A stretch of DNA of 64,000 nucleotides from Candidatus Nomurabacteria bacterium (GCA_023267375.1 JAHFNJ010000006.1:684-64683); one strand, 5' to 3'; counted from the first letter of the stretch, positions 5,314-56,352 are shown. Notes: generated by a model from the sequence alone, not told the origin. Program-made: numbers and translations.

Positions 5314-5325
5314 ACCTTTTTAGGA

Positions 5326-5658: not shown

Positions 5659-5659
5659 T

Positions 5660-9117: not shown

Positions 9118-9603
9118 CTATTCTATCTCGACGATAGTATATTCTATCGCGCCATTAGGACTTTGGAAAGAGGTCTTATCCCCCTTCTTGTGACCCAATA
9201 GTGCAGTACCAATAGGTGAACGGTTTGAGATCTTTCCTTGTGACATGTTTGCCTCTTCAGAACCGACGATTTGGTAACGTTTAGGCTCCTTCTCGCCTGC
9301 TTTTTTGACAATAACTGTTGAACCAACCTCTACCTTGGTACTGTGGTGTGTTTTAACAATGATCGATTCTTTAAGAATACGTTCAATTTTTGAAATACGC
9401 TCTTCAAGCTTTCCCTGCTCTTCACGGGCCTGATGGTATTCTGCGTTCTCTGAAAGATCGCCAAGTGATTTGGCAAACTCAAGACTGTCCAAAACCTCCT
9501 TACGACGGGTCGTTTGGAGCTCTTTTAATTCAATTTCCAATGCCTTACGCTTCTCTTCGGTTATATACTCTCCTTGGTGATCATCCATACCCTTTGAAAA
9601 CAC
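9118..9603 (-). CDS. greA: transcription elongation factor GreA
   Basis: 161 aa with an N-terminal coiled coil carrying the acidic tip (..LGDLSENAEYHQAREEQ..) and a C-terminal FKBP-like domain. Confidence 0.85.
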   Translation of the reverse strand: MFSKGMDDHQGEYITEEKRKALEIELKELQTTRRKEVLDSLEFAKSLGDLSENAEYHQAREEQGKLEERISKIERILKESIIVKTHHSTKVEVGSTVIVKKAGEKEPKRYQIVGSEEANMSQGKISNRSPIGTALLGHKKGDKTSFQSPNGAIEYTIVEIE

Positions 9604-9737: not shown

Positions 9738-11705
9738 TTAAACCCGCCAGACACCCTTAATAATGCCACTCGTTACCTGTACGGTGTCTGATGTGAATAC
9801 TTTTGTATATGAACCATCTTTTGGGTTCTTTTTCTCGATAGTAACAACATACCCACCATTTGGAATCAGGCAATAAAACTGACCTCTTTCTGTTGCAATC
9901 TTGCGGAGCACCTCATTACCTAAGGCTGCCGAATACACCCGAATAATGGCGTTTGCAAGAGGACGGCCGGTTGTTTTATCGACAATACTTCCTAGTTTTG
10001 AAAGTGACGGCCCTACTTCTTTCACAACAAGCATCACAATATAAATTGCAAAAATAAAAATATTGTATGGACGTGGAGCTGATAGAAAAGCAATAAGTGC
10101 CGTAATAAAACCAATCGAGAAAAGAATATCTGTTACTCGGGTCATAATAAAAGTTCGACGTGAGTAAAAATGCGTCAAGGACTGCTCCTGCTTCGCAAAT
10201 TCATTCCAACTAAAATTATTCGGATCCATTGGAATATTCTTGGTGATAACTTCTCCTTGCCTTTTTAACTCAAAATAATTACCAAAATATAAATCGAGAT
10301 AAATTTCATCCCGTGTAACATGCCCCAACAGGAGCGATGGGAATGAGTAGTCTGTTTTTTTTGCTCGAATCATATAGTACCCCGGTGGTGCCATAAACCC
10401 ATACCGACCATCAATATCAGTAATAGCGGTAGCAGCAACTTTCCCTGTTTTATCAACAAGTTCGAGAAATACCGGATCAAGTGGACGTTTTGTAACCGCA
10501 TCATATACAGTACCCCATGGTCGAGCGCGTTTTTTGAGACCTAAAGCAACCAAAAGAAGTGTCCAAATACGCAGCGGTAACAGAAAAATTTCTGAAAGAG
10601 AAAATGGTGTAGAAAATGCAATTGTCGCAATGGATCCAGCTGCTCCGAACACAAGCCCAGTCACCGCAATTGATTTTGAAATAGGATCTGCGTAAGGACT
10701 GCTGATCGTTTCTTTTATTTTAGAAATTGCTGTCTCAGTGATTGTTCCTAATTTTTTATCACAACTATTATCTGCTACACATTTTTCAATAACAACAACG
10801 GTGCGATAAACAGTAGCAGACAATGGGAGACTACTCCGGTCACTTACCGTATATTGTAATGTATACGTTCCAAGATTCTTCGTATCGACAACCCCTGTTT
10901 TTTTAATAAACAGTCTAAGATCACCATCTTCTGCATCAGTTGCTTGAGCACCTGGATCAGTAAAAATATCACCTTGAACTACCGTAATTTTGCTCTCCCC
11001 TAAAAGAGAGATCGAGGGAGGTGTATTTAATACATCTTGCGCTCGTATCACATTGATCGTGCGAATAACGCTTGCAGACAATCCTCCTTTGTCTGTTGCA
11101 GTATAAGTAATAGTATACGTACCGATAACAGCAGTATCTACTTTTTTACCACTTTTTTGGACAGAAAGAATACCATCTTCTACGTCTAATGCTGTCGCAC
11201 CCGGATCAACAAAGGGTTTTCCTTTTACGATAATAATAGGATTATCACCAAGAAGCGTAATATGGGGTGGTGTATTTTGTGGAAGCACAGAACTAACCGT
11301 CAACGAAATTGCAGCTGAAGTGCCAGTGTTCCCTGTGTTATCGATGGCTTTGGCAATAATTTTATAATCACCCTGAGCTAGAGCGTTAGTGTTCCAGTTA
11401 ACTGAATAATTACCAGTACTATCAGCGATATTGGTACTTCCAATAAAGTGCACAGTACTCCCCGTCTGATCTGGTTGAAAATAAAAATCAACTTTTTGTA
11501 TTCCATTAACATCTGTAGCAGAAGCTCTAACCAAAACACTGCCGTACACAACTGCCCCCTGGTTTGGTGAGATAACCGTAGTAATTGGTGGAGTTGCATC
11601 AACAACCGCAATTGAATAGTGAGCGGGAAGAGCAATTATAGAAACTAGTACTATAAAAAGTGCTCGAAAAAATATTCTATGGGGTGTGTTTACAAAAGAG
11701 AGCAT
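9738..11705 (-). CDS. secreted surface protein: signal peptide, Ig-like/DUF5011 domains, conserved C-terminal TM-hairpin/beta-sandwich anchor module
   Basis: Signal peptide MLSFVNTPHRIFFRALFIVLVSIIALPA and two DUF5011-like units (PPHITLLGDNPIIIVKGKPFVDPGATALDVEDG; PPSISLLGESKITVVQGDIFTDPGAQATDAEDG). The C-terminal ~270 aa are paralogous to the C-termini of the 25795-28206 and 28291-32502 genes. Confidence 0.6.
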   Translation of the reverse strand: MLSFVNTPHRIFFRALFIVLVSIIALPAHYSIAVVDATPPITTVISPNQGAVVYGSVLVRASATDVNGIQKVDFYFQPDQTGSTVHFIGSTNIADSTGNYSVNWNTNALAQGDYKIIAKAIDNTGNTGTSAAISLTVSSVLPQNTPPHITLLGDNPIIIVKGKPFVDPGATALDVEDGILSVQKSGKKVDTAVIGTYTITYTATDKGGLSASVIRTINVIRAQDVLNTPPSISLLGESKITVVQGDIFTDPGAQATDAEDGDLRLFIKKTGVVDTKNLGTYTLQYTVSDRSSLPLSATVYRTVVVIEKCVADNSCDKKLGTITETAISKIKETISSPYADPISKSIAVTGLVFGAAGSIATIAFSTPFSLSEIFLLPLRIWTLLLVALGLKKRARPWGTVYDAVTKRPLDPVFLELVDKTGKVAATAITDIDGRYGFMAPPGYYMIRAKKTDYSFPSLLLGHVTRDEIYLDLYFGNYFELKRQGEVITKNIPMDPNNFSWNEFAKQEQSLTHFYSRRTFIMTRVTDILFSIGFITALIAFLSAPRPYNIFIFAIYIVMLVVKEVGPSLSKLGSIVDKTTGRPLANAIIRVYSAALGNEVLRKIATERGQFYCLIPNGGYVVTIEKKNPKDGSYTKVFTSDTVQVTSGIIKGVWRV

Positions 11706-17800: not shown

Positions 17801-20800
17801 GATGTTTTGATTGAAAGCAGGAGCACTATGGAACGTATGATCCATGGTCGTCACCTTTGAGGTATCCCAACCACCGATGTTTTGATTGAAGGAGGTGGCG
17901 CCATCAAACGTCGAAAGCATGTTTGTGACCTTTGAGGTATCCCAGCCTACGAGACTACTATTGAAAGAGGAAGCGCCCAAAAATGTCCCTTCCAGTGTCT
18001 GCACTTCTCCAGTATCCCAGCCACTGATGTTTTGGTTGAAGGAGGTGGCATTGGCAAACGTGTAGGCCATGTTGACTACTTTCAAAGGATCCCAAGCACC
18101 AATGTCTTGATTGAAAGAAGTAGCACCCGAGAACATCGCGAGCATCGATGTCACTTCTCTCACGTCCCAGCCGCCGATGTTTCGATTGAAGGAAGTGGCA
18201 CTATGGAACATGTGGCTCATGTCAGCAACCTTCTCTACGTTCCACGTAGTTATATCTCCATTGAACGAAGTAGCGCTAAAGAACATCCCGGACGTTGTTA
18301 TAACTTTTGAGACATCCCATAAATTTAGTGGTTGATTAAATGAAGATGCTCCCTCAAACATACTACTCATACTAGTTACATTTCCGACATTCCAAGAATT
18401 GAGAGGTTGATTGAAAGCAGCGGCTAAGGCAAATGTACTATTCATACTAGTCACATTCGAAACATCCCAAGAATTGAGTGGCTGATTGAAAATAGTTGCA
18501 CCAGAGAACAGCGATGTCATATCTGTCACATTTGATACGTCCCACGAATTGAGCGACTGATTGAGTGAAGTGGCATTTTGGAACATATGACTCATGTCTG
18601 TTACTTGTGAAAGATCGGGTGTGTCAGTTGCGTTAATCTCAACATTGCTACAACCCTGGAAAGCACCTCCCATAGAATTCCATACTTGCGGACCCCACTG
18701 TTTAACAGAAAGAAGTTTGTCTTTATCTACGCTATTACCAAAAACAATACGCGGAAATGTTCCCGTAATCGAAATGGTATGCACACCTGGAGATGTATAC
18801 GCATGAGTGATATTTCCGGTAATACCAGTGCCGGTGGAACCATCTCCCCAATCAATATCATAGTTGAAAACTCCTCCACCAGTTGGGATAGTAATTGTTT
18901 CTCCACCTGATGTTGTTTGCCATGTAGTAATAAAAGCATCACAGAGCGGAGCTTTCCCTCCATCAGTGATGGTCCACCCATCACTGCTTATCATGTTTGC
19001 GCGCTGTGGTTCTGATTGACAGTAGAGACTCAGTCCCCCACTAAATAGTACGTTTGATTGCAGTGAAAGGAGATCCCAACCAGCAAGCAAGGCATCATAG
19101 TTTGCCGTTGAGAGTGTGTCTCCAGTAAACATACCGTCTGCGTTAGTAACATTGCCAACATCCCATCCGCCGATATCCTGATCAAAAGAAGTAGCATAGG
19201 CAAACATTTGCTCCATTGTTGTCACGTGTGACACATCCCACCCCCCGATAGGTTGATTGAAAGAAGACGCATAGGAAAACATATAGAGCATTTGGGTAAC
19301 TCGTGAAATTTTTGCATCCCAATCAAGTGGCACCCCTCCATTATTGAAAGCTGTCGCGCCATAAAACATGTTATGCATATTAATAGTATTCGAAGAATTA
19401 CTATTAAAAGTCCACTCACTTATATCTTGATCAAAAGCCACAGCCTGTTGGAACATCTGGCTTAAATCAATATTGATACTAGAAAGATTTCCTCCGAGAA
19501 TAGTCCATGTAGCAATCGGCTGATTAAAATGAGTAGCGCTTTGGAACATAATGCTGAAGTCGGTAACTTTTCCTACATTCCAATCAAGAGGTCTATTCTC
19601 GTTATTCCCAGTATCACCATTATTGAAAACTGTCGCGCCATAAAACATTCCCTGCATATTCGTCACATTTGAAACATTCCAGTTACTGATATCTTGGTTG
19701 AAGGATGTTGCACCACTGAACATGTACAACGACTGAACAACATTGGAGAATTTATTATCCCAACTTAGCGGCTTACTACCATTGTTGCCGGTATCGCCAT
19801 TGTTAAAGGACGTTGCACCATAAAATGTGTTGTGCATATTTGTCACACTCGAAATATCCCAGGCAGTGAGTTCCTGATTGAAAGCTATCGCCTGCTGGAA
19901 CATCAAACTCATGTCTTGTACGCTTGAAACATCCCACCCCTCGATAGGCTGATTGAAACTAGCAGCACCGTAAAACATAGCGCTCATATCGGTAACAGTC
20001 CCCACATTCCATCCGCCGATAGGTTGATTGAATACTGATGCACTTTGAAACATTCCCTGCATTGTACTTACACTTGATACATTCCAATTAGCAATAGGCT
20101 GATTGAACGACGTAGCATACGCAAACATATACAACATGCGCGTGACATTTGAAAGTTTGTTATCCCAATCAAGCGGCTGCCCGCCGTTATTGAAAGCAGT
20201 CGCACCATAGAACATGTTCTGCATATTTGTGACATTCGAAACATCCCAATCACTAATATCGGTATTCATAGACGTAGCACCTTGAAACATGATACTCATA
20301 TCTTCCACTGAGGTTAAAACAGGATTACCTGCCGAAGCACTTATTGTAAGATTACTACATCCACGAAAAGCTTCAGTGAAGGTATCCCACTCTTGCCTTC
20401 CCCACTCTTCAACTGAAAGAATTTTATCTTTGTTTAAAATTGAAGGAAAACTATTATCCTTTATGTTGCTATTTGCAAAATAAATTGCAGGAAAATCACC
20501 ATTAATCGAAACAGTGTGTATCCCAGCGGTTGCGTATGTATGCGAAGGATTTGCACTACTCCCAGTGGTAGCGGCAGTGCCGTCTCCCCAATCGATATAG
20601 TAGTTATAGCTATACCCGCCATTTGTTGGAATGGTAATTGATTCCCCGTTGTTTGTCGTTTGCCAAGTGGTAACAAATGCGCCACAGAGCGGGTCTTCTC
20701 CGCCATCAACAAATTCATTTGTGTAATAAGGAGGTGAATACCACTGATACGTATCGCGGAGTATTGTTCGTTGTGTAGCAGAGGTACAATACATACTTGT

Positions 20801-22884: not shown

Positions 22885-25782
22885 TCAATAATAGAAATAA
22901 AATACTTCAGATCCGGTATCAAACGTGGTGACCGCTCGTATAACAATATCTAGGAAGTCGCCAGCAGTTGAAGGTATTCCAGAAATTTCACCTGTGTCAG
23001 GATCTAAAGTCAGGCCATCAGGTAATATTCCCGAGACAACTTCAAAGGTAGTTGTTCCTTGAGCGGTATTTTGAGCAACAAGCGTCTTACTATATGGAGT
23101 ACCTTGAATGCCAGGATCACAGGTGAATGGTTCAAGATACACAAAATCATACATCATTACACGATTATTCGATCTATCCACAACATAAAGACGGTTGTTG
23201 TCTGGATCTACCGCCATCTGTGTTGGTATCGCAAGCGTATCTTGGTCGGGATCAGTGAGTCCCATGTTTGGATCGCTTGAATCAAAATCAAGTTGCCCTA
23301 AAATAGCGTGGGCATCCTGACCGTTCACAAATGCTGTCGTACTAAAAACAGACACGCGATTATTTACTGTATCGGCGACATATAAAGTTCTACCACTAAC
23401 CGCAAGACCAATAGGGCCCGAGAGTCCTGCCTGACTTGTCGTAGCAGCATCATTCGTAAACGCACTCGCATTTGGTTGACCAAGTTCATTTGCCGCAGAC
23501 ATTGCTACACCATGATCCCCTTTTGCTCCCAATGTATTGTCATCAATCAATGTTTTATCAAAAATCATCACACGATTATTTGCTGTATCAGCAATATACA
23601 CATGATCAGTATCAGTAGTAATTCCTCGAGGAGCAGAGAGTCCTGAGATACTGGTCGTTGCAGTACTGCCATTATAATCCGCTTGCCCAAAAACGTACGT
23701 CGCGCTTTCCCCATTAGCAGCAATAGTACCTGAAAATCCGAGTACACGATTATTGTCAGTATCAGCTACGTACAGGATGTTGCCATCTTCATCAAAGAAC
23801 AGGCCACTTGGACCAGAGAGTCCAGTAACACTCGTATCAGGGTCACTTGAAGAAGTATCTGCCTGCCCAACAACATATGAAGCAGCCATACCGTCAGTAA
23901 TAGTTGCAGTACTATATACGAGGATACGATTATTTCCTGCGTCTGAGACAAAAAGACGGTCAGTCATAGAATCATAGGCCAATCCTTGAGGACCTGACAG
24001 AGCATCGGCCCCAACAGGAGCACCACGATTTGCAGTGGTATCTTCAAAGTTTATTTGGCCGAGTACATTGTCAGCAAAGTGGTCGTACGTTCCACTGTCA
24101 GTAATTGTATTTGTTGTCGGGTCAAGATAGAACACAAGTACACGATTGTTATTTGTATCAGAAATAAAGAGACGATGGTGCACGGTATCTATCGCAACAC
24201 CACTTGAAGCACTTCCTGCACCAAGATCAAAACCTGCATTATTTACATACCCAGACTTGGTATTTATATCAGGCTGACTCCAAACCACAGGAATATGAAT
24301 AGGATTCGTTGTGATGTACTGCCCTACTTCGTGAACAGCATATTTATTAGCATCTTTAAAAACATAATCAGGGCTACCACTATCCATATCAAACATCATA
24401 AGTCTATTATTTTGACCATCAAGCAAGTAGAGATACTTGGTCGATGCTTCAAAAACAATCTCTCCGAAGGTTAGGAATGATGCTTGGTTAGTAGGATTGG
24501 TTGCTCCTGTCGTAAAATCTGGCTGGCCAATAACACTCGTTGCAGTTTTATAGTCATTGGTAGCACCACTCATATCAGTGACATTAAATGTTAGTACTCG
24601 ATGGTTACTCGCATCAAAAACATAGAGCGAGGATGTTGCACTATCAAACGAAACACCATTTGGCCCCTGCAAACCTGTGGCAGACTGACCTACTTGATCT
24701 TGGGGATCAACCCCATTCCAGTTAAGAAATCGACTATCAAGATCTGGTTGGCCAATAACGCATGATGCATCCATCATACTAGCAAGACCCTGAGTAACCG
24801 TATTGCATAATGTTTCGTCAGGAAGCGGATTCAGTATTGGATCAGGATTAAAATTTGGTCGTACATCATACATAACGACACGATTATTTCCGTTATCGGC
24901 AATGTAAAGACGCTCATGGGAAGGAGTAAGATCAAGAGAAAGGCTCTCTGGTGTATCAAACTTATGCGGAGCAACACCCTGTCTATCAACATCATTAGGA
25001 TCATTTAAAACGCAAGTAATCGGAGCAATCGTAACCCCAGAAGAAAGTCCTGTTGTACTGACACCACAGAGCGTACGTGCAGAAGAAGGATTACCACCGT
25101 CTGTTCGAACATCAAAAACATTAATAACATGGTTACCAGAGTCACTCACATAGAGAAGATAATTGTTTGTATCAAGTGCCATACCATAACTATTACCATA
25201 TGCTTGTGTCCTATACAGCGGAGCTGGGTTGTCATATGTCTGACTATTTATTTTTGTTGACAGATCAGCTGTATCAAAAATACTAACAGTTCCACCACCA
25301 TAGTTTGCAACGTACAGATAATTTGTAACTGGATCAAACACAAGAGCTTCAGGTATATTTATCGCTCCACCAGACCCCTGAGAAGTAAAATCACTTGCTC
25401 CGAACACATACGCAGCATGTGGATCAGTGAGTGTTTTGTTGTTGTTGTTGTCCAGCTGAAAAACAAGCACTCGATTGTTGTCAGAATCAGAAGCAAAAAG
25501 GTAATGTCTTACGGTATCGATAGCAACACCAGCACCAGCACCATAGGTTGTAAGGGCGAAACCTAAGTCATTGATCGTTCCTAAACTATCAGGACTATTA
25601 TTTTTTCCAGCCTGCTCAAACGATTCTTCAAAATTTGTGCCGACCGTAAGCTGCCCAACAGCATCTGCTGCCAAATATCCTCCTGAAGTCGCACGTGTCA
25701 CCAACAACACCGTTATCGTGATGTAGAAAAGTGCAGCAGCGGCAAGTATGAGATGATAGGTTTTACGATTTTTATACAGCAT
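22885..25782 (-). CDS. secreted NHL-repeat beta-propeller protein with C-terminal He_PIG-like Ig domain
   Basis: Signal anchor, then at least 10 NHL-type repeats (LYVSDSGNHVINVFDV, RLYIADNGNNRVVMYDV, LYVADTVNNRVSVFS ...). The C-terminus (TTFEVVSGILPDGLTLDPDTGEISG) is typical of the putative Ig (He_PIG) domain. Confidence 0.65.
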   Translation of the reverse strand: MLYKNRKTYHLILAAAALFYITITVLLVTRATSGGYLAADAVGQLTVGTNFEESFEQAGKNNSPDSLGTINDLGFALTTYGAGAGVAIDTVRHYLFASDSDNNRVLVFQLDNNNNKTLTDPHAAYVFGASDFTSQGSGGAINIPEALVFDPVTNYLYVANYGGGTVSIFDTADLSTKINSQTYDNPAPLYRTQAYGNSYGMALDTNNYLLYVSDSGNHVINVFDVRTDGGNPSSARTLCGVSTTGLSSGVTIAPITCVLNDPNDVDRQGVAPHKFDTPESLSLDLTPSHERLYIADNGNNRVVMYDVRPNFNPDPILNPLPDETLCNTVTQGLASMMDASCVIGQPDLDSRFLNWNGVDPQDQVGQSATGLQGPNGVSFDSATSSLYVFDASNHRVLTFNVTDMSGATNDYKTATSVIGQPDFTTGATNPTNQASFLTFGEIVFEASTKYLYLLDGQNNRLMMFDMDSGSPDYVFKDANKYAVHEVGQYITTNPIHIPVVWSQPDINTKSGYVNNAGFDLGAGSASSGVAIDTVHHRLFISDTNNNRVLVFYLDPTTNTITDSGTYDHFADNVLGQINFEDTTANRGAPVGADALSGPQGLAYDSMTDRLFVSDAGNNRILVYSTATITDGMAASYVVGQADTSSSDPDTSVTGLSGPSGLFFDEDGNILYVADTDNNRVLGFSGTIAANGESATYVFGQADYNGSTATTSISGLSAPRGITTDTDHVYIADTANNRVMIFDKTLIDDNTLGAKGDHGVAMSAANELGQPNASAFTNDAATTSQAGLSGPIGLAVSGRTLYVADTVNNRVSVFSTTAFVNGQDAHAILGQLDFDSSDPNMGLTDPDQDTLAIPTQMAVDPDNNRLYVVDRSNNRVMMYDFVYLEPFTCDPGIQGTPYSKTLVAQNTAQGTTTFEVVSGILPDGLTLDPDTGEISGIPSTAGDFLDIVIRAVTTFDTGSEVFYFYY

Positions 25783-25794
25783 ATGCGTTGGTTA

Positions 25795-28206
25795 TTACTT
25801 TGATTTGATTACTTTGTTTGTTAATGGATCATCTACTTTCCAGACACCGTTGATTCGTTCGTTCTTCACAACAACTTTTGGTGATGTCAGTAACCGTGTA
25901 TAGGTACCATTTGGATTTTTCTTTTCAATTGCAATGAAGTATTCACCGTTTGGGATCAAGCAGTAGAAACGCCCATACTCAGTTGTGATTTTTCGCACTA
26001 CTTCATTACCAAGCGATGCAGAGTAGACACGAACAACAGCGTATGCGAGCGGTCGGCCAGTTTTTTTATCAATCACCGTGCCCAATTTTGAGAGTGAAAT
26101 ACCCATTTCGCGAATAATCAAAATCGCAATGTATACACCAAGGATAACGATATTCCAAGTGTTTGGCAAAATGATGAACGCGAGAACAGAGATGATAAGA
26201 CCTAAGATAAAGAGAACATCTGCACTTCTTGAAAGGAACTTTGAATTCTTCGAAAGCAGTTTTGCAATCCGTTCTTCGTGTTTTTCAAAATCCTGTTGAT
26301 CAAAGTGCTCACGATCAAGCGGAATATTCATTGTAATGAGCTGCTCATGTTTTTTCAATTCAAAGTAATTACCGAAGTAGAGATGGTCATACATTTCATC
26401 CCGTGTTACATGTGCAAGAACAATTGATGGAAATACGTAGTGTGCAAAGCGTGGGCGAATCATATAGGTTCCAGGTGGTACCAGGAAACCATAGCGTCCT
26501 TGGCTATCAGTAATTGATGTAGCAACTTGTTTACCTTCTTGATCGACAAGTTCAAGGAACACTGGATCAAGCGGTTTTTTTGTAACCGAGTCATACACAA
26601 TACCCCAGGTTGGCTCTTTTCTTTTTACAATACCAAAGAGTAATAACACAAGCGACCAGAGACGCAGGTTCGGCATTGTCATGGCAAATGCGATTGCTGT
26701 CACAAGAGCACCAGTTGCCAATCCAACAACCTGAATTGCTTTTACCGCATTATTCTCATTCAAAAAATTCTGTCCATCGTCAATCCCGTCGTCGACTCCT
26801 TTCGTGCAAGGCAAAATAGTACAGATTGTTGGGTCTATCGTAAATGAAAGAATGTTTTCACAACTTTCACCGAAACTATTTTTTGCAAAGGCACTGTAGT
26901 AATACGTACCAGGATCGAGCGTTGAAATATTTTCTGAAAAATTACCTGTAGTATTCATTGTACGTGTGGCTAGTGGCACCGTACTATTTAAAGAATTACG
27001 ACTCTTGCCAAACCTAAAATAAATTGAAACAACAGGATCACCGAGGCTAGTAACAACACCATTTAAAGTGGCTGAGTCTACGGTTACAGCCGTTGCTCCT
27101 CGAGTAGTAACTACAGGACTCCCGTCGTTTGAGCAATCTATTATAGGAGGACCCACATCCTCTTTACACAAACCAGTTCCTATCCCGTCAGGAATCAAAC
27201 CTGTTGGACAGGCGGTCGTAAAATTAAGAACCACTCCACACCCCGTCTTTTTTGATTGATCATCTGCACATGCTTTAAAGAAATACGTAGTGTTCTTTAC
27301 TAAATTTGACATAGTAACTCTAAATGCCGAGTTTCCCTGTGTCCCTGGAATGTCGAGTGCTGAATCTTTGTTTAGCGAAAGTGGGCTCAGACCAATCCAA
27401 AAATATGTATGGTAACAATCTCCAGTACTACACTTTGGTCCGACCACCGCACCATTAACCGTCGCAATAGTAACACCTACCGCAGTCGCATCATTTGTGA
27501 CAACTACCGGTTTATTATTAGGAGGATTACTACCACAAGTTCTTGGTGTTGCAAATGTTACCCAGTCACCGTAAAAAGTTCCTGAACCATTTTCAGTAGC
27601 AATACGATATATATATGTTGTATTCAATGTAGCCCCACTTCCAAGTGAAAAAGATACTGTTTGGTTCCCAGATAAAGCGGAAAGATTTGTTACCCCAAAT
27701 GGACCAGTAGGATTGCCATTCTTGTCTTGTATCTCAAACCACGCAGTAGCAACACTACCCTCTGTATCAACGGTACCATGGAACGTTGTCGAGGAAACAG
27801 GACAACTATTATCCGCAGAATTTGTGACAGGAGCGAGTGGAACATTGGTTATCGCAGAACAGATTTGTAGACCAACCCATGAGTCAGAAGTTTCAACACT
27901 ATAATCAATCGGAGCTGCATCATTGTTGGTAAAAAGATAATCTTGTGTCCCATTTGTCACCACATTACTCCCTGTATCTTGAGACATGAGACCATATATG
28001 TTATCGAGTGGAGTAACTGTACTTGTCCCAGCCGCATGGACAATTTTGCCAGAAAGATCTTTTAGAGAAAATGGACCAACAGAAAAAGCATCAACAGGAG
28101 CGGGAAACGCGATGAAAAATGCGAGCGCAATAAGAGCAAAGAAAGAAAAACGTATACCGCTTCTTTGTATGATTTCTTGTAACGATGTCATAGTAATACA
28201 CCTCAA
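25795..28206 (-). CDS. secreted surface protein with Ig/FN3-like domains and conserved C-terminal TM-hairpin/beta-sandwich anchor module
   Basis: Signal peptide and a Thr/Ser/Asn-rich beta-rich extracellular region. The C-terminal module (WGIVYDSVTKKPLDPVFLELVDQEGKQVATSITDSQGRYGF...) is paralogous to those at 9738-10560 and 28291-29110. Confidence 0.6.
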   Translation of the reverse strand: MRCITMTSLQEIIQRSGIRFSFFALIALAFFIAFPAPVDAFSVGPFSLKDLSGKIVHAAGTSTVTPLDNIYGLMSQDTGSNVVTNGTQDYLFTNNDAAPIDYSVETSDSWVGLQICSAITNVPLAPVTNSADNSCPVSSTTFHGTVDTEGSVATAWFEIQDKNGNPTGPFGVTNLSALSGNQTVSFSLGSGATLNTTYIYRIATENGSGTFYGDWVTFATPRTCGSNPPNNKPVVVTNDATAVGVTIATVNGAVVGPKCSTGDCYHTYFWIGLSPLSLNKDSALDIPGTQGNSAFRVTMSNLVKNTTYFFKACADDQSKKTGCGVVLNFTTACPTGLIPDGIGTGLCKEDVGPPIIDCSNDGSPVVTTRGATAVTVDSATLNGVVTSLGDPVVSIYFRFGKSRNSLNSTVPLATRTMNTTGNFSENISTLDPGTYYYSAFAKNSFGESCENILSFTIDPTICTILPCTKGVDDGIDDGQNFLNENNAVKAIQVVGLATGALVTAIAFAMTMPNLRLWSLVLLLFGIVKRKEPTWGIVYDSVTKKPLDPVFLELVDQEGKQVATSITDSQGRYGFLVPPGTYMIRPRFAHYVFPSIVLAHVTRDEMYDHLYFGNYFELKKHEQLITMNIPLDREHFDQQDFEKHEERIAKLLSKNSKFLSRSADVLFILGLIISVLAFIILPNTWNIVILGVYIAILIIREMGISLSKLGTVIDKKTGRPLAYAVVRVYSASLGNEVVRKITTEYGRFYCLIPNGEYFIAIEKKNPNGTYTRLLTSPKVVVKNERINGVWKVDDPLTNKVIKSK

Positions 28207-28290
28207 GCCTCTGCTTTATTTTTTAGTACACTACAAGTATACAACGCGCAAAAGCATTTGCCTACCTTTTCTTGTGTATTTCAGAGAAAA

Positions 28291-31200
28291 CTACACTTTC
28301 CATTCACCTTTAATAATCCCCTTCTTTACCTCTATTTTTTGGGAAGTGAAAATTCTGACATAACCACCCTCTGGGGACTTCTTTTCAATCGTAACTATAT
28401 ATGAGCCATTTGGCACAAGACAATAGAACTGTCCATATTCATTTGCGACCTTATGAATAACTTCATTACTAAGGGTTGCTGAATAAACACGGATAATAGT
28501 ATATGGAATTGGGCGTCCCGTTTTTTTATCGACAACAGTACCAAGCTTGGCGAGAGATATACCAACCTCCTTCACAACAAGCAATACTATATAGAGCCCA
28601 AGTGTGATGATCGTGAGTGTTGTTGGGTGTGTGATAAACGTAATGATGGCCAAGATAAAACCAGCGGCAAAAAGAATATTCGCAATACGATTAAGCCAAA
28701 TAATACGGCGTGAATACATTGTTGCAAACCCCTGCTCTTTCTTTTCAAATTCATTCCAATCGAAACGTACAGGATCGAGGGGAATATTTTTTGTAATTAC
28801 TTCTCCTTCTTTTTTTATTTCGAAATAATTGCCAAAATAAAGATTGTCATAAATTTCATCGCGAGTCACGTGACCTAAAATAATTGACGGAAATACATAA
28901 TTTGTTTTCTTGGCACGAATCATATACATTCCCGGCGGCACCAAGAAACCGTAACGACCGTTAATGTCTGAAATAGCAGTGGCAACTTGCTTTCCATCTT
29001 GATCAATAAGCTCAAGATATACGGGATCAAGTGGACGCTTTGTTGCCGCGTCATATACCACGCCCCACGGTGCTCGTTTTCTAAAACCAAAGAATGAAAG
29101 TAGTAACGACCAGAGGTGTGACGGAAAGAGAGAAGAAACAAGACCAGCAAGAAGACCTGCCGCTGCCACTACCTGAGCCGTTGCAGCTACGTAAATATTA
29201 TTTGTAAGATCACAGAGATGCTGCATCCCCAACCCAATGCTCCCCGAGAATAATGAGGCTACTGCACATTTTTGACCTTCATCTTTTGGTGGAAGTGGAG
29301 GAGGTGGTGGCAGAGTATTTATTTTGATTGCATATGATTCATACACGGTGCTCTTTGTATCGAAAGCACGAACTGAAAAATGATACGTCCCTTCTTTGGT
29401 AGGAACACCCGAAAGTATCCCTGATAAAGAATCTAGTGTAATTCCTGGCGGTAGTATTCCTGAAAAGAGGCCAAAAGAAACGACACCTTTGGCATTTTGG
29501 GTGGTGAGCGTTTGCGGTATATATGTCGCAGACACCATACCGTCAGGAAGTGTTGCGGGGTTTAATATAAAAACAGGGCCACCATTACAAGGAAGAATGT
29601 CACAACCTTTATTGGTTACATACAAATTATAAAGTTGCGTATCAGTTGCACTAAGAGCATCAACAGCTTGGATAACAAATTGGTAGTGACATTTTGGATA
29701 ACCAGAGCAAGTTGGATCTTCAGCTGTTGTCCCATGGAGTATGCCGTACTTGTTATTATTTTTATCAGTTTCCAGAGAAAGACCTTCTGGGAGATCCCCT
29801 GAAAGAATCGAAAAAGTAACTGGACCACTAGACGCTGCGCTTTCTGTTGCAATTAATTGAGTATATGGTTTTTCTACATCAGTATCTTTTATGTGGGTCG
29901 TCGTTATATGAAAGATATCAGGAACGATTTGTGCTGTATGAAAAAGGACTGGGGAACCAACAGCTGTCTGCCCTTTCCCTTCTGCGTATGCACAATACAC
30001 ATAATCAGTATCTGGAAGAAGATTAGTGATACTTGTTGCAAAGATACCATACTTAGACCATGGCAAATGAACTGTTTCAGAAGATCCATTTGGTGGACAC
30101 GAAGAATTATTTGCGGATTGATAGTAAGAAAACCACACACGTGGAGAAAGAGTTGCCCCAGAAATGAGCGCTCCTTGAAGAATTGCTCCTTTTCCAGAAA
30201 CATCGGGAATTCCCCCTTTTGTTTCAACAATCAGAACCTCATCCTGCTGATGACAGCTATTGCAAATGGTAACACTACTCGTATCAGAAACTTGTCCACC
30301 ATTATAAAATGCAGTTGCTTCAATTGTATACGTACCATCCGGAACCCCTACTGTATTCCAGTTCACCGAGTAATCATTCCCAGAAACAGTATATGTATCA
30401 GTAATTTGTCCGTTTTGTGAACCTGTATATGAAAATGAAACACTTGTAATCGTTTTACTCTTCGGTGTTACCTGTGCAGCAACAGAAACAAAACTAGAAA
30501 CCTTCGCCCCATTTGATGGAGTGGTGATCTGTATTGTGGGAGTCGTAGAACTGCAACACGTAGACGGCTTTGTAATCGTAATCGGATATGTGTGGGTAGT
30601 TGTACGGAACACTGCTGTCGGCGGTGATGGCAACGGCTGGAATCTATCCATTCCAAAAACTGTCATATTGTATGTGCAGGGATACCCTCCACTACAATTA
30701 ACTGGATCATCTATTGGGGTCCCCGAAAGAAGACCCTGTGTTGGAAACATCGGGTCTGTAACAAAAGTAAGGCCAGCCGGGACATTTGTTGTAAAAAAAA
30801 GTACAGTACCTTGGCTCCCTGATGTATAAATTGGCTGACTGTATGCTGTGCTAATTTTCCCTGAAGGCAACGATGCAGTAATGATATCGATAAAATTGTA
30901 AATCATGATACGGTGCGGTTCAATATCAATCGTATACAACCGAGATGACGACGCATCGATCGTTATCCCATAGGGCACACTAAATTTTTTATCACTCGTG
31001 CCCGCTGTTTGATTGAAAAAATCAGGCTGTCCAAGCACCGCTTCAGCATCGATTGCTCCACAAAAAGAAGGGATCGTCGCGAGTGTGTTGTACACAAGAA
31101 TTCTCCCAGCAACTTCATCGGATACAAACAAGCGATTATGGATGGCGTCATATTCAATAGCACGTGGCGTCCACATCTTACACTGAGAAACCCCAGGAGT

Positions 31201-32502
31201 ACCTGATAGAACATCTGCTTGCCCAAATGGCAACCATGAGCCCGGAGAATATACAGTATTGCCGGTACTCAAACTTATGTTCCACCTCATAACACGAGAA
31301 TTGCCTGCATCAGAAACATACAAGGTACCATTAATAACCCCCGGGAAAGATGCGCTCGCTTCAAATGCAACATCCCATGGATTTTTGAGAAGATACCCAG
31401 TAGTACCATTATCCCCTTTAGTAAAATCATCATGAGTAGTCGGGTATGAAGCATCGCCTCCCAAAACCCACGAAGCATCAATTCCTAATCCACCGTTATC
31501 AAAAGGCGTAAACCCTCGCGCCTTTGCATTAAGTGTTGCTGTACTTACATCAAAAACAAGTACGCGATGATTATGTAATTCGGTCACAAAAAGAATATTA
31601 TTTTCTTCGTTGTATTCAAGACCTTCTGGTTCATCAAAACCTTCCGCAATAGGATTCGCTGCACCAGCATTGGCAACATTACTTGTAAAATTTGGCTGTC
31701 CTAAAACATACAGTGCATCCTCTCCATTTGTAATAGTGCTTACATCAAAAACAAGTACGCGATGACTACGCGTGTCCGAAACAAAGAGTCGATTATTGAA
31801 ACCATCATATGCAAGTCCTCCGATATCGCCCCCAAGAGTACCTGCAGGGTTAACATTATGAGTAATGTCCTTAAAGTTATCACTCCCCAGCACGTAGTCA
31901 GCAACATGATCAAAAGTACCAGTATCAGGAATATTATTATTGCCATCTAGATTAAACACGAGCACCCGATGATTATTATCATCCGAAACGAACAATCGAT
32001 GATGGACTGTATCTATGGCGAGTGTTTGCGGAGAATTAAAACCAACATCATTCGGAAAAGCTGCGGTACTATTTGGGGAACTGACACCCTGTGTCCAGTT
32101 CAAAGTACTCATATCAAAGGTATACGTGAGATCAGAGGTTGCTGTCGCAATCGGATTGAGTAATGTATCAGTAATGGTCTCACCATTAATAAATGCAATT
32201 GAGCCAATTGGCTGAATAGAGAGCGTGGATCCGTTATCAGCAGAGACAACCCCTGTCGCATTGCTTGAACTTCCTTGTATTGATTGACCAACAGAAAATG
32301 TTGGGGCTCCAAGCAAGGTGTAATTTATATGTCCTGTTGGTTCGAATTGTCCCAACATATCAGATGCTCGATAAGAATCTCCTGTTGCCTTTGCAGTTAA
32401 GATAAAAGCGCTCGTAATAAAAAGCATCGCCAGTACGATCGTGAGCGCATGATATATTTTGCGATATTTATAAAGCATATAAGTCGTCTTTGACGTGTAC
32501 AC
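28291..32502 (-). CDS. secreted NHL-repeat surface protein (1,403 aa) with He_PIG/Ig-like domains and conserved C-terminal anchor module
   Basis: Signal anchor, NHL repeats (RLFVSDDNNHRVLVFNL, RLFVSDTRSHRVLVFDV, ILFVTELHNHRVLVFDV ...) and He_PIG-like segments. A PPPPPLPP linker precedes the same C-terminal module as the other two paralogs. Confidence 0.65.
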   Translation of the reverse strand: MYTSKTTYMLYKYRKIYHALTIVLAMLFITSAFILTAKATGDSYRASDMLGQFEPTGHINYTLLGAPTFSVGQSIQGSSSNATGVVSADNGSTLSIQPIGSIAFINGETITDTLLNPIATATSDLTYTFDMSTLNWTQGVSSPNSTAAFPNDVGFNSPQTLAIDTVHHRLFVSDDNNHRVLVFNLDGNNNIPDTGTFDHVADYVLGSDNFKDITHNVNPAGTLGGDIGGLAYDGFNNRLFVSDTRSHRVLVFDVSTITNGEDALYVLGQPNFTSNVANAGAANPIAEGFDEPEGLEYNEENNILFVTELHNHRVLVFDVSTATLNAKARGFTPFDNGGLGIDASWVLGGDASYPTTHDDFTKGDNGTTGYLLKNPWDVAFEASASFPGVINGTLYVSDAGNSRVMRWNISLSTGNTVYSPGSWLPFGQADVLSGTPGVSQCKMWTPRAIEYDAIHNRLFVSDEVAGRILVYNTLATIPSFCGAIDAEAVLGQPDFFNQTAGTSDKKFSVPYGITIDASSSRLYTIDIEPHRIMIYNFIDIITASLPSGKISTAYSQPIYTSGSQGTVLFFTTNVPAGLTFVTDPMFPTQGLLSGTPIDDPVNCSGGYPCTYNMTVFGMDRFQPLPSPPTAVFRTTTHTYPITITKPSTCCSSTTPTIQITTPSNGAKVSSFVSVAAQVTPKSKTITSVSFSYTGSQNGQITDTYTVSGNDYSVNWNTVGVPDGTYTIEATAFYNGGQVSDTSSVTICNSCHQQDEVLIVETKGGIPDVSGKGAILQGALISGATLSPRVWFSYYQSANNSSCPPNGSSETVHLPWSKYGIFATSITNLLPDTDYVYCAYAEGKGQTAVGSPVLFHTAQIVPDIFHITTTHIKDTDVEKPYTQLIATESAASSGPVTFSILSGDLPEGLSLETDKNNNKYGILHGTTAEDPTCSGYPKCHYQFVIQAVDALSATDTQLYNLYVTNKGCDILPCNGGPVFILNPATLPDGMVSATYIPQTLTTQNAKGVVSFGLFSGILPPGITLDSLSGILSGVPTKEGTYHFSVRAFDTKSTVYESYAIKINTLPPPPPLPPKDEGQKCAVASLFSGSIGLGMQHLCDLTNNIYVAATAQVVAAAGLLAGLVSSLFPSHLWSLLLSFFGFRKRAPWGVVYDAATKRPLDPVYLELIDQDGKQVATAISDINGRYGFLVPPGMYMIRAKKTNYVFPSIILGHVTRDEIYDNLYFGNYFEIKKEGEVITKNIPLDPVRFDWNEFEKKEQGFATMYSRRIIWLNRIANILFAAGFILAIITFITHPTTLTIITLGLYIVLLVVKEVGISLAKLGTVVDKKTGRPIPYTIIRVYSATLSNEVIHKVANEYGQFYCLVPNGSYIVTIEKKSPEGGYVRIFTSQKIEVKKGIIKGEWKV

Positions 32503-32597: not shown

Positions 32598-34292
32598 TTA
32601 TTTTAAATACTCGGGAGTCTCAACGGACATAAAATCAAAGAGTTGGCGCATTACCGTTGAAGCACTAACAGCATTTGCTTTCGGCGCTGCTTCCATAAGA
32701 ATCACGAAGGCGTACTTTGGATTTTCATACGGGAAAAATCCCATACTCCAAGAATTCACAAATTCATTATGCAACCCCACCTGGGCGGTACCAGTTTTTG
32801 CCGCAACTTTTACTTGCGGAACATTCATAGATCCTGCTGTACCCGAAGTCACCGCTTGACGCATACCTTCACGGGCTACCTGAAAATAATCTGGATTGAT
32901 ATCAATTTTTTCGGCTGGCACAATCGCAACCTCATCGTTCTTATCTTTTTTTAAAATAGTTGGGGTATAGAGCATCCCATTATTTGCAACAGCTGCTGCG
33001 GCACGAACCATTTGAATTGGCGTTACCTGAAACCCATACTGACCAATGGCAGTATGGTACGTATCACCAATACGCCATGGATCACCTTTGAACACTTTTA
33101 ATTTCCACTCTGGTGTTGGCAGTACTCCCTGCGCTTCAGATGGTAAATCAATACCTGTTTTTTTAGTTATTCCAAACATTTCTGTATATTTATCAATGTT
33201 GGCAATCCCCAATCCTTTTTGATCTTGATACCCCCCACCAATTGCATAGAAGTAAACGTCCGAAGAAACAGCGATGGCTTCACGCATGTCTGTCCACCCG
33301 TTCACACGCCAGTCCTTAAAAACTGTTTTCTGGTCAGGGAAATATGGATTGGGAATTGAAATTGATCCTGTACTTAAAATTTGCTTTTCGGGTGTAATAA
33401 TTCCTTCGTTAAGTGCCCCAATGGCAAGTGGTATTTTTTCAATCGAACCAGGTGAATAGAGACCTGCGATGGCACGATTAATGAATGGTTTATTTTTGTT
33501 TGAAAGATAACCATTTATTTTTTCTCTATCACTTCCATCGGACAATACATCTGAATTGTATTCAGGCACACTAGTAATCGCTAAAAGTTCACCGGTATAA
33601 ACATCCATGAGTATTCCCGCACCGCCAGTGAACGAACCCTCATTCACATATGAAGCAATTGTTTGTGACAGTTTTTGTTGCACCCTTGAATCTACGGATA
33701 GCACTAAATTTGCACCATCTTGTGGTGGATTTTCAAGATTTTCTGATACAACCTTACCTTGCACATCAGTTTCAATCATTCGCAAACCATTTTTACCTGC
33801 AAGCAGTACATTGTACTGTTTTTCAACACCATCACGACCAATAAATTCCTCTTGCCAATAATTTCCTGATTTATCTTTTGTCGGATAGCTAACATACCCA
33901 AGCAAGTGTCCGAAACCATCAAGTTTTGTATACGCGCGATGCGGTAATGTCGTTTCGTCAGTACTTTCAGTATTCCATGCAAGCGGCACATTGTTGCGAT
34001 CATAAATAATGCCACGATTTGCAATGATGGGTTCACGATCAAGAGTATTGTTTACACTTCTATTATAGTAAGCCTCTCCGTTCACAACCGAAAGCATCCC
34101 AACTCGCCAGCAAAAAATAATAACAATAACAAAAAAAACTCCACCTACGAAACGAAGTGTTCCTTTACTAATCGGTGTCACCATACGTCCCTCAAACTGC
34201 TGCGTATCAAACTCCGGCAAATTACGCGCATCGAGAAATATCTCATCTGGCTCAACTTCAGCAAATATTCTTTTGGTTTTTCTAAATCGCAT
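32598..34292 (-). CDS. mrdA: peptidoglycan D,D-transpeptidase, class B PBP (PBP2/MrdA-like)
   Basis: N-terminal TM anchor, PBP dimerisation domain and transpeptidase domain. It is a second class B PBP, distinct from the dcw-linked ftsI. An MreD-like small membrane gene lies upstream. Confidence 0.7.
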   Translation of the reverse strand: MRFRKTKRIFAEVEPDEIFLDARNLPEFDTQQFEGRMVTPISKGTLRFVGGVFFVIVIIFCWRVGMLSVVNGEAYYNRSVNNTLDREPIIANRGIIYDRNNVPLAWNTESTDETTLPHRAYTKLDGFGHLLGYVSYPTKDKSGNYWQEEFIGRDGVEKQYNVLLAGKNGLRMIETDVQGKVVSENLENPPQDGANLVLSVDSRVQQKLSQTIASYVNEGSFTGGAGILMDVYTGELLAITSVPEYNSDVLSDGSDREKINGYLSNKNKPFINRAIAGLYSPGSIEKIPLAIGALNEGIITPEKQILSTGSISIPNPYFPDQKTVFKDWRVNGWTDMREAIAVSSDVYFYAIGGGYQDQKGLGIANIDKYTEMFGITKKTGIDLPSEAQGVLPTPEWKLKVFKGDPWRIGDTYHTAIGQYGFQVTPIQMVRAAAAVANNGMLYTPTILKKDKNDEVAIVPAEKIDINPDYFQVAREGMRQAVTSGTAGSMNVPQVKVAAKTGTAQVGLHNEFVNSWSMGFFPYENPKYAFVILMEAAPKANAVSASTVMRQLFDFMSVETPEYLK

Positions 34293-56350: not shown

Positions 56351-56352
56351 TT

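What the first reader, a model, noticed from the sequence alone, without database searches (positions are those of the whole stretch)
25795..29130. Conserved C-terminal anchor module shared by three of the surface proteins (TM hairpin - beta-sandwich - TM hairpin - beta-sandwich)
The last ~270 residues of the 9738-11705, 25795-28206 and 28291-32502 genes (module spans about 9738-10560, 25795-26640 and 28291-29110) are clear paralogs, with variable N-termini. The module is two hydrophobic helices, then a ~60-aa segment of the form WG.VYD..TK.PLDPVFLEL.D..GK.VAT.I.D..GRYGF..PPG.YMIR, then two more helices, then a second similar segment (G.V.DK.TGRP....IRVYSA.L.NEV..K...E.G.FYC..PNG.Y...IEKK). 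The segments resemble carboxypeptidase-regulatory/transthyretin-like beta-sandwiches. This looks like a dedicated membrane-anchoring or export module for giant surface proteins. I cannot match it to sortase/LPXTG, S-layer homology, type IX secretion CTD or any other anchor I know.
Basis: partly seen in the sequence, partly recalled or inferred. Interest (0 to 1): 0.7.

Follow-up and report, generated by a model that had tools for sequence, protein, structure and literature searches.

The report
Conserved membrane module on CPR surface proteins
Three surface-protein genes in this Patescibacteria (CPR) genome end in the same unnamed ~320-residue membrane module, which is common across that group and probably holds two small beta-sandwich domains inside the cell, so it looks more like a receptor tail than a plain anchor.

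Summary
Genes 9738-11705, 25795-28206 and 28291-32502 (all minus strand) share a C-terminal module at 53-61% identity. A family HMM hits only these three in the window (E 1e-115 to 1e-137). Two AlphaFold models (pLDDT 85-87) show hydrophobic helices A and B, a transthyretin-like sandwich, a long basic helix, a tight TM3/TM4 hairpin, then a second sandwich. No Pfam, NCBIfam or PDB entry covers the whole module.

The family is large (2,400 50%-identity clusters at E<=1e-30), is named only from Patescibacteria apart from one partial "archaeon" record, and is almost always C-terminal on proteins of 330-3,040 aa.

Charges next to the membrane helices (about 14 K/R beside the sandwiches versus 0.2 in the two short loops) place both sandwiches in the cytoplasm. 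Other evidence agrees: helix B is only 10-14 residues in two window copies, the module is poor in cysteine while the ectodomains are rich, and ten loci have module-histidine kinase-response regulator operons, one a direct fusion. The first "hairpin" therefore probably crosses the membrane once.

No secretion genes co-occur. An M50 site-2-protease gene lies directly upstream in 33 of 80 related loci.

Topology and function are inferred, not proven.

The parts
9738..11705 (-). Gene W1 (655 aa): signal peptide, Big_7, two Bact_surface_Ig-like domains, C-terminal module
   Evidence: ORF, translation, Pfam, family HMM E 3e-137
10701..10763 (-). W1 lead-in amphipathic helix (aa 315-335), conserved across the family
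   Evidence: AF2 helix 10-30; conserved hydrophobic periodicity; coordinates
10611..10685 (-). W1 helix A (aa 341-365): Gly/Ala/Ser/Thr-rich, uncharged, moderately hydrophobic. Its position relative to the membrane is unresolved; it is probably a juxtamembrane or outer-leaflet helix
   Evidence: AF2 H34-60; family mean Kyte-Doolittle 1.58; no flanking K/R; couplings with helix B near the turn
10536..10598 (-). W1 helix B (aa 370-390) with conserved Glu and Arg seven residues apart. Probable stop-transfer membrane helix
   Evidence: AF2 H65-82; E 98% and R 96% conserved; coupling with TM4 (77-247)
10521..10535 (-). W1 basic cluster KKRAR directly after helix B (95-98% K/R in the family)
10221..10520 (-). 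W1 beta-sandwich 1 (aa 396-495): CarboxypepD_reg/transthyretin-like, with a highly conserved insert (NYxFPS...DExYxxLYFG)
10137..10214 (-). W1 basic helix (aa 498-523), continuous with TM3; mean 6.8 K/R in the family
   Evidence: AF2 H195-237; charge counts
10077..10136 (-). W1 membrane helix TM3 (aa 524-543)
   Evidence: AF2; Kyte-Doolittle 2.05; antiparallel couplings with TM4
10011..10064 (-). W1 membrane helix TM4 (aa 548-565), joined to TM3 by the charge-free turn PRPYN
   Evidence: AF2 H241-259
9741..9995 (-). W1 beta-sandwich 2 (aa 571-655), extending to the C-terminus
   Evidence: AF2 strands; weak PF13715 and Fn3_arc hits; DCA recovers its hairpins
25795..28206 (-). Gene W2 (803 aa as listed; the real start is probably ATG at 28191): signal peptide, Fn3-like ectodomain, C-terminal module
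   Evidence: HMM E 1e-115
25795..26778 (-). W2 module: A 26680-26739, B 26626-26676 (about 14 hydrophobic residues after a 9-residue deletion), KRKE 26614-26625, sandwich 1 26311-26610, basic helix 26227-26304, TM3 26167-26226, TM4 26101-26154, sandwich 2 plus 12-residue tail 25798-26085
   Evidence: alignment A1; coordinates; PF13620 46.3 bits
28291..32502 (-). Gene W3 (1,403 aa as listed; the real start is probably ATG at 32478): signal anchor, NHL repeats, Big_7, C-terminal module
   Evidence: HMM E 8e-127
28291..29229 (-). W3 module: A 29131-29193, B 29083-29130 (AF2 helix of only 10 residues), RKRA 29071-29082, sandwich 1 28771-29070, basic helix 28687-28764, TM3 28627-28686, TM4 28561-28614, sandwich 2 28294-28545
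   Evidence: AF2 model m67b0c757bdf7, pLDDT 87.3, H29-50 and H54-63; coordinates; PF13620 45.7 bits

Best explanation
The module is a Patescibacteria-specific, unnamed C-terminal membrane domain. It holds secreted, highly variable ectodomains in the cytoplasmic membrane and places two conserved transthyretin-like beta-sandwiches on the cytoplasmic side. That gives it a receptor-like layout: a variable part outside, three membrane passes, and a conserved part inside.

Proposed path of the chain: the signal peptide exports the ectodomain. The amphipathic lead-in helix and the weakly hydrophobic helix A go through with it and settle at the outer face of the membrane. The hydrophobic stretch just before the invariant KKR cluster (helix B) stops transfer. 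Sandwich 1 and the basic helix stay inside. TM3 and TM4 make a tight hairpin with a 5-residue outside turn. Sandwich 2 ends inside.

Shown:
- paralogy of the three copies;
- the helices and the sandwich fold;
- family size and taxonomic range;
- strictly C-terminal position;
- the charge pattern;
- gene neighbourhoods.

Inferred:
- cytoplasmic location of the sandwiches;
- a single crossing by helices A plus B;
- the idea that the cytoplasmic sandwiches dock a conserved partner.

In the core orthologue of the family that partner is probably the histidine kinase/response regulator pair, the M50 intramembrane protease encoded beside it, or both. The three window proteins have no such neighbour. 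They would either act through partners encoded elsewhere or serve only as anchors.
For: Paralogy and family:
- Alignment A1 and the HMM.
- 129 close homologues.
- 2,400 cluster representatives at E<=1e-30.
- 506 confirmed hits in species-representative genomes. The best 80 loci are titled Paceibacteria, Nomurabacteria, Taylorbacteria, Minisyncoccia, 'Saccharibacteria' or Patescibacteria group, apart from a few generic 'bacterium'/'uncultured bacterium' records.

Architecture:
- The module sits at the extreme C-terminus in nearly all members, behind N-terminal signal peptides.

Structure:
- AF2 models with pLDDT 85.3 and 87.3.

Topology:
- In 237 sequences, mean K+R is 3.73 in the 15 residues after B, 6.76 before TM3 and 3.52 after TM4. 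It is 0.03 in the A-B loop (net charge -0.94) and 0.19 in the TM3-TM4 loop. KKR is 95-98% conserved directly after B.
- Helix B is about 14 residues in W2 and a 10-residue helix in the W3 model, too short for a second full crossing.
- Cysteine density is 2.23 per 100 aa in the ectodomains and 0.35 in the module; most modules have 0-1 Cys.

Kinase coupling:
- Ten distinct loci have the module gene followed at -9 to +32 nt by a histidine kinase gene; a response-regulator gene follows in the loci where gene calls were read: L001/L002, L006, L009/L010, L011, L094, and L068, L086, L088, L124 (HK checked only).
- Three of those kinases are soluble proteins of 232-247 aa with no membrane helix and no sensor domain.
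- P0132 (L008) fuses the module directly to HisKA plus HATPase_c with no intervening membrane helix.

Helix packing:
- Mean-field DCA on 311 sequences recovers known beta-hairpins, the TM3-TM4 antiparallel pairing, a B-TM4 coupling and A-B contacts near the turn.
Against: - Carboxypeptidase-regulatory/transthyretin-like domains are, from general knowledge, nearly always extracytoplasmic. A cytoplasmic pair would be unusual.
- The simplest reading of helix-turn-helix A-B (AF2, DCA) is a two-pass hairpin, which would put the sandwiches outside.
- The single-crossing model leaves a 20-residue uncharged helix A (Kyte-Doolittle 1.58) without a defined place.
- Stand-alone forms with one hydrophobic stretch (P0113, P0114, P0116) fit either topology.
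- The kinase fusion is a single 4-kb metagenome contig. It could be loss of a stop codon across a 75-nt spacer.
- Kinase coupling occurs in only 3 of 80 unbiased loci. No kinase, response regulator or M50 gene lies in the 64-kb window.
- No topology predictor could be run, and the model coordinates could not be inspected.
Confidence: 0.55

Rival explanations
1. The module is a four-pass anchor: A/B and TM3/TM4 are both true hairpins, with only two tiny cytoplasmic turns. Both beta-sandwiches lie outside, where they would bind cell wall, S-layer or each other to fix surface proteins to the envelope.
For: - AF2 and DCA show helix-turn-helix for A-B and for TM3-TM4.
- The closest structural relatives are extracellular domains: carboxypeptidase D, SdrD B, CnaB/pilins, NOMO, SlaB and the SusC N-terminal extension.
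- The parity is simple: forms with an ectodomain have A plus B, while forms without one (P0114 type) have a single helix.
Against: - It inverts every topogenic signal. The short 'cytoplasmic' loops would carry 0.03 and 0.19 K/R, and one of them a conserved acidic residue, while about 14 K/R flank the membrane helices on the 'outside'.
- Helix B is only 10-14 residues in W2 and W3.
- It leaves almost no cytoplasmic surface to explain the operons with soluble, sensor-less kinases.
- It is impossible for the P0132 fusion unless that contig is an artefact.
- The module is Cys-poor while the ectodomains are Cys-rich.
Confidence: 0.25
2. The module is mainly a substrate or partner of the small M50 (site-2-protease family) intramembrane metalloprotease encoded beside the core orthologue. 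Regulated cleavage within its conserved membrane helices would shed the surface protein or release the cytoplasmic sandwiches as a signal.
For: - In 33 of 80 unbiased loci, an M50 gene of about 210 aa (HEFAHG motif) lies directly upstream on the same strand. In most of them the ORFs abut or overlap (clustering).
- In the kinase-coupled loci M50 stays in the neighbourhood.
- The membrane helices are unusually conserved and contain helix-breaking Pro and small residues.
Against: - The pairing may be plain conserved synteny next to rpsL-rpsG-fusA.
- It concerns the ~600-aa 'GWINF' orthologue, not the window's paralogues, and there is no M50 gene in the window.
- From general knowledge, known site-2 proteases cut N-in/C-out helices after an outside site-1 cut. 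Helix B has the opposite orientation in the favoured topology, and the TM3-TM4 loop is only 5 residues.
- No cleavage evidence exists.
Confidence: 0.15
3. The similarity is an artefact of low-complexity hydrophobic sequence, or the hydrophobic segments are buried beta-strands of a soluble protein.
For: None found.
Against: - HMM E-values of 1e-115 to 1e-137.
- The most conserved columns lie in the polar sandwich 1.
- AF2 predicts helices of 18-43 residues with pLDDT 65-95.
- Thousands of homologues exist.
Confidence: 0.01

Closest known systems
Pfam PF13620 CarboxypepD_reg / PF13715 (transthyretin-like beta-sandwich, as in carboxypeptidase D, 5aq0)
   Different: The Pfam families describe one soluble ~80-residue domain. 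Here two copies are interleaved with four hydrophobic helices in a fixed order. Sandwich 1 has a conserved ~40-residue insert, and the pair is probably cytoplasmic.
C-terminal sorting signals of surface proteins (LPXTG/sortase; PEP-CTERM, PGF-CTERM, GlyGly-CTERM; T9SS CTD)
   Same: It occupies the C-terminal position on secreted, variable surface proteins. Helix B followed by a KKR cluster resembles the 'hydrophobic helix plus basic tail' part of such signals.
   Different: There is no signature motif. About 260 folded residues follow the basic cluster. No sortase, exosortase or T9SS gene is nearby, and the NCBIfam models do not match.
Receptor-like proteins and accessory sensors that feed sensor-less histidine kinases (for example BceAB-BceS and LiaF-LiaS, from general knowledge); chemoreceptors with variable outside and conserved inside
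   Same: It has a variable ectodomain, membrane passes and a conserved cytoplasmic part. In ten loci it lies in an operon with a kinase that has no sensor domain, and once it is fused to one.
   Different: There is no sequence or fold relation to those systems. The cytoplasmic part is a pair of beta-sandwiches rather than HAMP/coiled-coil or ABC domains. Most family members, including the three here, have no adjacent kinase.
Beta-sandwich-plus-membrane-helix envelope proteins (Sulfolobus SlaB 8qox_B; NOMO of the BOS complex 9c7v_B)
   Different: Those proteins have a single C-terminal helix with all sandwiches outside or lumenal. The match covers only one sandwich, and there is no sequence homology beyond PF13620-level similarity.

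Membership tests
PF13620 CarboxypepD_reg (domain level) | Score at or above the Pfam gathering cut-off (32.3 bits) | tested here: met
   38.5, 46.3 and 45.7 bits for W1, W2 and W3, with the best stretch in sandwich 1
PF13620/PF13715 (second sandwich) | Score at or above the gathering cut-off for the second segment | tested here: not met
   PF13715 scores 15-22 bits against a cut-off of 32.2. The fold is nevertheless a beta-sandwich in both AF2 models.
Transthyretin-like fold | Structural superposition on solved members | tested here: met
LPXTG sortase-anchored proteins | LPXTG-type motif directly before a C-terminal hydrophobic helix and basic tail that ends the protein | tested here: not met
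   No such motif lies near the helices. About 260 residues follow the basic cluster.
T9SS C-terminal domain (TIGR04183) | Score at or above the NCBIfam cut-off (23 bits), in an organism with an outer membrane and T9SS | tested here: not met
   15.1 bits, E 0.017. From general knowledge, Patescibacteria lack an outer membrane.
Exosortase/archaeosortase/rhombosortase signals (PEP-CTERM, PGF-CTERM, GlyGly-CTERM) | A match to the NCBIfam sorting-signal models, located at the extreme C-terminus | tested here: not met
   No such model appears among NCBIfam hits at E<=1.
S-layer homology (SLH) anchors | Presence of Pfam SLH domains | tested here: not met
   No SLH hit appears in the Pfam scans of the five surface proteins.
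Sensor histidine kinase | HisKA plus HATPase_c in the same polypeptide | tested here: not met
   Absent from W1-W3 and from the whole window. Present only in the relative P0132.
Site-2-protease substrate | Demonstrated intramembrane cleavage by an M50 protease | not testable with these tools
   Only gene adjacency in 33 of 80 related loci is available.
Any named full-length family | One curated model or solved structure covering helices plus both sandwiches | tested here: not met

The most novel reading that the evidence does not exclude
The module defines a Patescibacteria-wide receptor superfamily. Dozens of fast-evolving adhesin-like ectodomains per lineage are all wired to one conserved cytoplasmic twin-sandwich output. 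That output reports surface contact, for example with a host cell, to a shared intracellular partner: the locus-linked histidine kinase/response regulator and/or the M50 intramembrane protease. The arrangement would resemble many chemoreceptors converging on one kinase. It would be a previously unrecognised outside-in signalling system in episymbiotic ultra-small bacteria.
Probability: 0.25. Interest if true: 0.8.

Novelty: new variant of a known kind. Interest (0 to 1): 0.6.

Why it matters
Patescibacteria (CPR) are thought to live attached to host cells, and how they sense and hold on to hosts is largely unknown. This module is one of the most conserved parts of their otherwise hypervariable surface proteins, and it is common: 2,400 clusters at 50% identity, with several copies per genome.

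If its sandwiches are cytoplasmic and talk to a kinase or an intramembrane protease, it gives a concrete, testable route from surface contact to gene regulation. It also gives a sequence handle (an HMM) for cataloguing the surface-receptor repertoire of any CPR genome.

Even if it proves to be only an anchor, it would be a sortase-independent way of fixing surface proteins to the membrane in this group, and one that current annotation misses.

Tried and rejected
- The afdb50 fold library was not available, so no check against predicted structures was possible.
- A second homologue search, using the junction of the P0132 module-kinase fusion, found only ordinary kinases and no further fusion. 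That tool returned no protein longer than about 620 aa in either search, so long fusions may simply be invisible to it.
- A metagenome scan with an alignment of the short kinases (A3) returned mostly unrelated kinases. Only L124 had a module gene upstream. More distant short kinases (P0335, P0359) are not module-linked. The kinase link is therefore confined to one narrow clade or locus and cannot be generalised.
- DCA beyond about the top 20 pairs is noise (for example 86-232), so it could not fix the depth or orientation of helix A.
- Stand-alone single-helix forms (P0114 type) were first taken as proof of an odd number of crossings. On reflection they fit both topologies.
- Sortase, SLH, T9SS and exosortase-type anchors were considered and rejected.
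- Seven literature searches found no description of the module. The one paper opened, Nelson and Stegen 2015 (PMC4508563), does not mention it.
- Model coordinates could not be inspected, so helix packing geometry is known only through secondary structure and DCA.

Full report
**1. What is in the window**

The region between greA (9118-9603) and a PBP2-type transpeptidase gene (32598-34292) carries five large minus-strand genes:
- W3: 28291-32502, 1,403 aa
- W2: 25795-28206, 803 aa
- an NHL-repeat protein: 22885-25782, 965 aa
- a DUF285 x16 / NHL / Big_7 protein: 11816-22867, 3,683 aa
- W1: 9738-11705, 655 aa

All five start with a signal peptide or signal anchor. The rest of the window is housekeeping: mraZ, mraW, Mur ligase, a class II aminoacyl-tRNA synthetase, sigma factors and transporters. 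There is no sortase, secretion system, pilus, kinase, response regulator or M50 protease gene. The nearest relatives are Paceibacteria and Nomurabacteria MAGs, so this is a Patescibacteria (CPR) genome.

**2. Checking the observation**

W1, W2 and W3 share their last ~310-335 residues at 53-61% identity (A1). Their N-terminal parts carry unrelated domain sets. A family HMM searched against all six frames hits only these three ORFs, with E 3e-137, 8e-127 and 1e-115. The 965-aa and 3,683-aa neighbours lack the module and have no C-terminal hydrophobic segment.

**3. Anatomy**

I made AlphaFold2 models of the W1 module (pLDDT 85.3, pTM 0.69) and the W3 module (pLDDT 87.3). Both show the same order of elements:
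- an amphipathic helix;
- helix A, which is Gly/Ala/Ser/Thr-rich and uncharged;
- a short turn;
- helix B, 18 residues in W1;
- a basic cluster (KKR);
- beta-sandwich 1, about 100 aa with pLDDT above 90;
- a 43-residue helix whose first half is strongly basic and whose second half is hydrophobic (TM3);
- a 3-5-residue turn (PxPYN);
- TM4;
- beta-sandwich 2, about 85 aa, running to the C-terminus.

**4. The family**

A word-indexed search found 129 homologues at E<=1e-50 and 36-54% identity. Where named, they are called 'hypothetical' or 'carboxypeptidase-like regulatory domain-containing protein' from Parcubacteria and Taylorbacteria, apart from one partial record labelled 'archaeon' (P0100).

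An exhaustive profile search of 1.84 billion cluster representatives found 2,400 at E<=1e-30 and 6,035 at E<=1e-3. The carrier proteins range from about 330 to 3,040 aa, and the module almost always reaches the last residue. Full-length members begin with signal peptides.

A scan of one genome per species gave 506 confirmed hits. The 80 best loci are almost all titled as Patescibacteria lineages (Paceibacteria/Paceibacterota, Nomurabacteria, Taylorbacteria, Minisyncoccia, MAGs labelled 'Saccharibacteria', 'Patescibacteria group'); a few carry only generic 'bacterium' or 'uncultured bacterium' titles.

A related MAG, GCA_034680565.1 (locus L004), has a syntenic cluster. It holds three module-bearing proteins and one large module-less NHL protein.

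Conservation is highest in sandwich 1 and its insert (WGxVYDSVTKQPLDPAYV, ITDLDGRYGF, KTNYxFPS, DExYxNLYFG, KNIPLDP, FDWNEFAK). That degree of conservation is more than a passive anchor would need.

**5. Topology**

Across 237 family members the charge pattern is strongly one-sided:

| Region | Mean K+R |
|---|---|
| 15 residues after B | 3.73 |
| 28 residues before TM3 | 6.76 |
| 15 residues after TM4 | 3.52 |
| A-B loop | 0.03 (plus one conserved acidic residue) |
| TM3-TM4 loop | 0.19 |

KKR is 95-98% conserved directly after B. The positive-inside rule is established knowledge and applies properly to short loops and to residues flanking membrane helices. By that rule the two short loops are outside and both sandwiches are inside.

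Because the ectodomain is outside, helices A plus B must together cross an odd number of times. Independent points agree with this:
- In W2 and W3 a 9-residue deletion leaves B with about 14 hydrophobic residues. AF2 gives B only 10 helical residues in W3, too short for a second full pass.
- Cysteine density is 2.23 per 100 aa in the ectodomains and 0.35 in the module.
- The module is linked to cytoplasmic kinases (section 6).

Mean-field DCA on 311 sequences recovers the beta-hairpins of sandwich 2, which serves as a positive control. It also recovers the TM3-TM4 antiparallel pairing, a B-TM4 coupling (77-247) and A-B contacts close to the turn.

My working model is that the stretch immediately before KKR is a stop-transfer helix. 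Helix A, with mean Kyte-Doolittle 1.58 and no positive flank, would be translocated and pack at the outer face. The exact position of helix A is unexplained.

The rival four-pass, all-outside model is simpler geometrically and matches the usual location of this fold. It contradicts every charge signal.

**6. Gene neighbourhood**

No secretion or sorting gene recurs. Two associations do.

*Histidine kinase and response regulator.* In ten distinct loci the module gene is followed at -9 to +32 nt by a histidine kinase gene; where gene calls were read (L001/L002, L006, L009/L010, L011, L094) a response-regulator gene follows the kinase. The other four loci are L068, L086, L088 and L124, where I checked only for the kinase. 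In L009, L011 and L094 the kinase is a 232-247-aa soluble HisKA plus HATPase_c protein with no membrane helix and no sensor domain. In L001 and L006 it has one N-terminal helix and a PAS domain.

In P0132 (L008) the module is fused through a low-complexity linker, with no membrane helix, to HisKA plus HATPase_c. That would require a cytoplasmic C-terminus. However, it rests on a single 4-kb contig, and the junction looks like an open 75-nt spacer in front of a former 'MP...' start, so I count it only as supporting evidence. Kinase coupling is rare in an unbiased sample, at 3 of 80 loci.

*M50 protease.* In 33 of the 80 loci a Peptidase_M50 (site-2-protease family) gene of about 210 aa lies directly upstream on the same strand, usually abutting or overlapping the module gene. 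These are mostly a ~600-aa core orthologue whose ectodomain carries 'YAWSxxIGWINF' repeats, sitting upstream of rpsL-rpsG-fusA.

The family therefore consists of one positionally conserved orthologue embedded in a signalling-type neighbourhood, plus many dispersed paralogues with diverse ectodomains. The three window genes belong to the second group.

**7. Interpretation**

The best-supported reading (confidence 0.55) is a receptor-like C-terminal membrane module: variable ectodomain outside, three passes, two conserved sandwiches inside that dock a conserved partner. For the window's three proteins the anchoring role is shown as far as sequence can show it. Any signalling role is inferred from relatives.

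Rivals:
- the all-outside four-pass anchor (0.25);
- a regulated-proteolysis substrate of the M50 protease (0.15, and not exclusive of the main model);
- an artefact (0.01).

**8. Novelty**

The folds are known. The module as a unit is unnamed in Pfam, NCBIfam and the PDB, and I found no paper describing it. I rate it a new variant of a known kind: a membrane anchor or receptor tail built from transthyretin-like sandwiches, found so far almost only in Patescibacteria.

Noticed in passing
Related loci L019, L023, L025, L030, L031, L034, L036, L040, L045, L057, L064, L070, L072, L078, L080, L090 and others (module gene at about 4000-6000 in each): A Peptidase_M50 (site-2-protease family) gene of about 210 aa lies directly upstream of the module gene on the same strand in 33 of 80 loci. 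The ORFs often overlap or are 4 nt apart, and rpsL-rpsG-fusA follows downstream. There is no M50 gene in the window.
   Followed up: partly
L001 847-2451, L006 6001-7611, L023, L044, L047 and others: The commonest family member is a ~535-720-aa protein whose ectodomain carries 2-3 'YAWSxxIGWINF'-type repeats and one or more Cys-rich knots (HNxCNxxxQC...GxGxNxCxxDSDC) just before the module. No Pfam family matches that ectodomain.
   Followed up: partly
window 11816-22867 and 22885-25782 (minus strand): The two largest proteins of the cluster are a 3,683-aa protein with 16 DUF285 repeats, NHL, PKD and Big_7 domains, and a 965-aa NHL/He_PIG protein. Both have N-terminal signal anchors but no module and no C-terminal hydrophobic segment. 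The 965-aa protein's N-terminus is paralogous to that of W3. How they stay on the cell is unknown.
   Followed up: partly
window 28191 and 32478: The listed starts of W2 (TTG at 28206) and W3 (GTG at 32502) are probably too early. In-frame ATG codons at 28191 and 32478 give canonical signal peptides (MTSLQEII... and MLYKYRKIYH...).
   Followed up: no
window 59501-59620 (+): There is a full-length match to Rfam LOOT RNA (RF03000, 81.6 bits, E 8e-14). It lies just downstream of a large serine recombinase gene (58011-59357, minus strand), in a low-GC stretch (33-38% GC at 54-60 kb) that looks like a mobile element.
   Followed up: no
window 55787-57939: A 528-aa protein fuses a LexA DNA-binding domain, a Peptidase_S24 domain and a C-5 cytosine DNA methylase (56353-57939, minus strand). 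It lies next to a Bsp6I-like restriction endonuclease gene (55787-56350, plus strand), which is an unusual controller-methylase fusion in a restriction-modification system.
   Followed up: no
tool behaviour: the search for homologous proteins returned no hit longer than 540 aa or 622 aa, although the exhaustive search shows many family members of 600-3,040 aa. It also did not return P0132 for a query cut from P0132 itself. Long proteins seem under-sampled by that tool.
   Followed up: no
window 50290-51465 (minus strand): Another secreted protein combines PG_binding_1, Big_7 and two InlB B-repeat-like domains. It uses a peptidoglycan-binding domain rather than the module, so this genome has at least two different ways of retaining surface proteins.
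   Followed up: no
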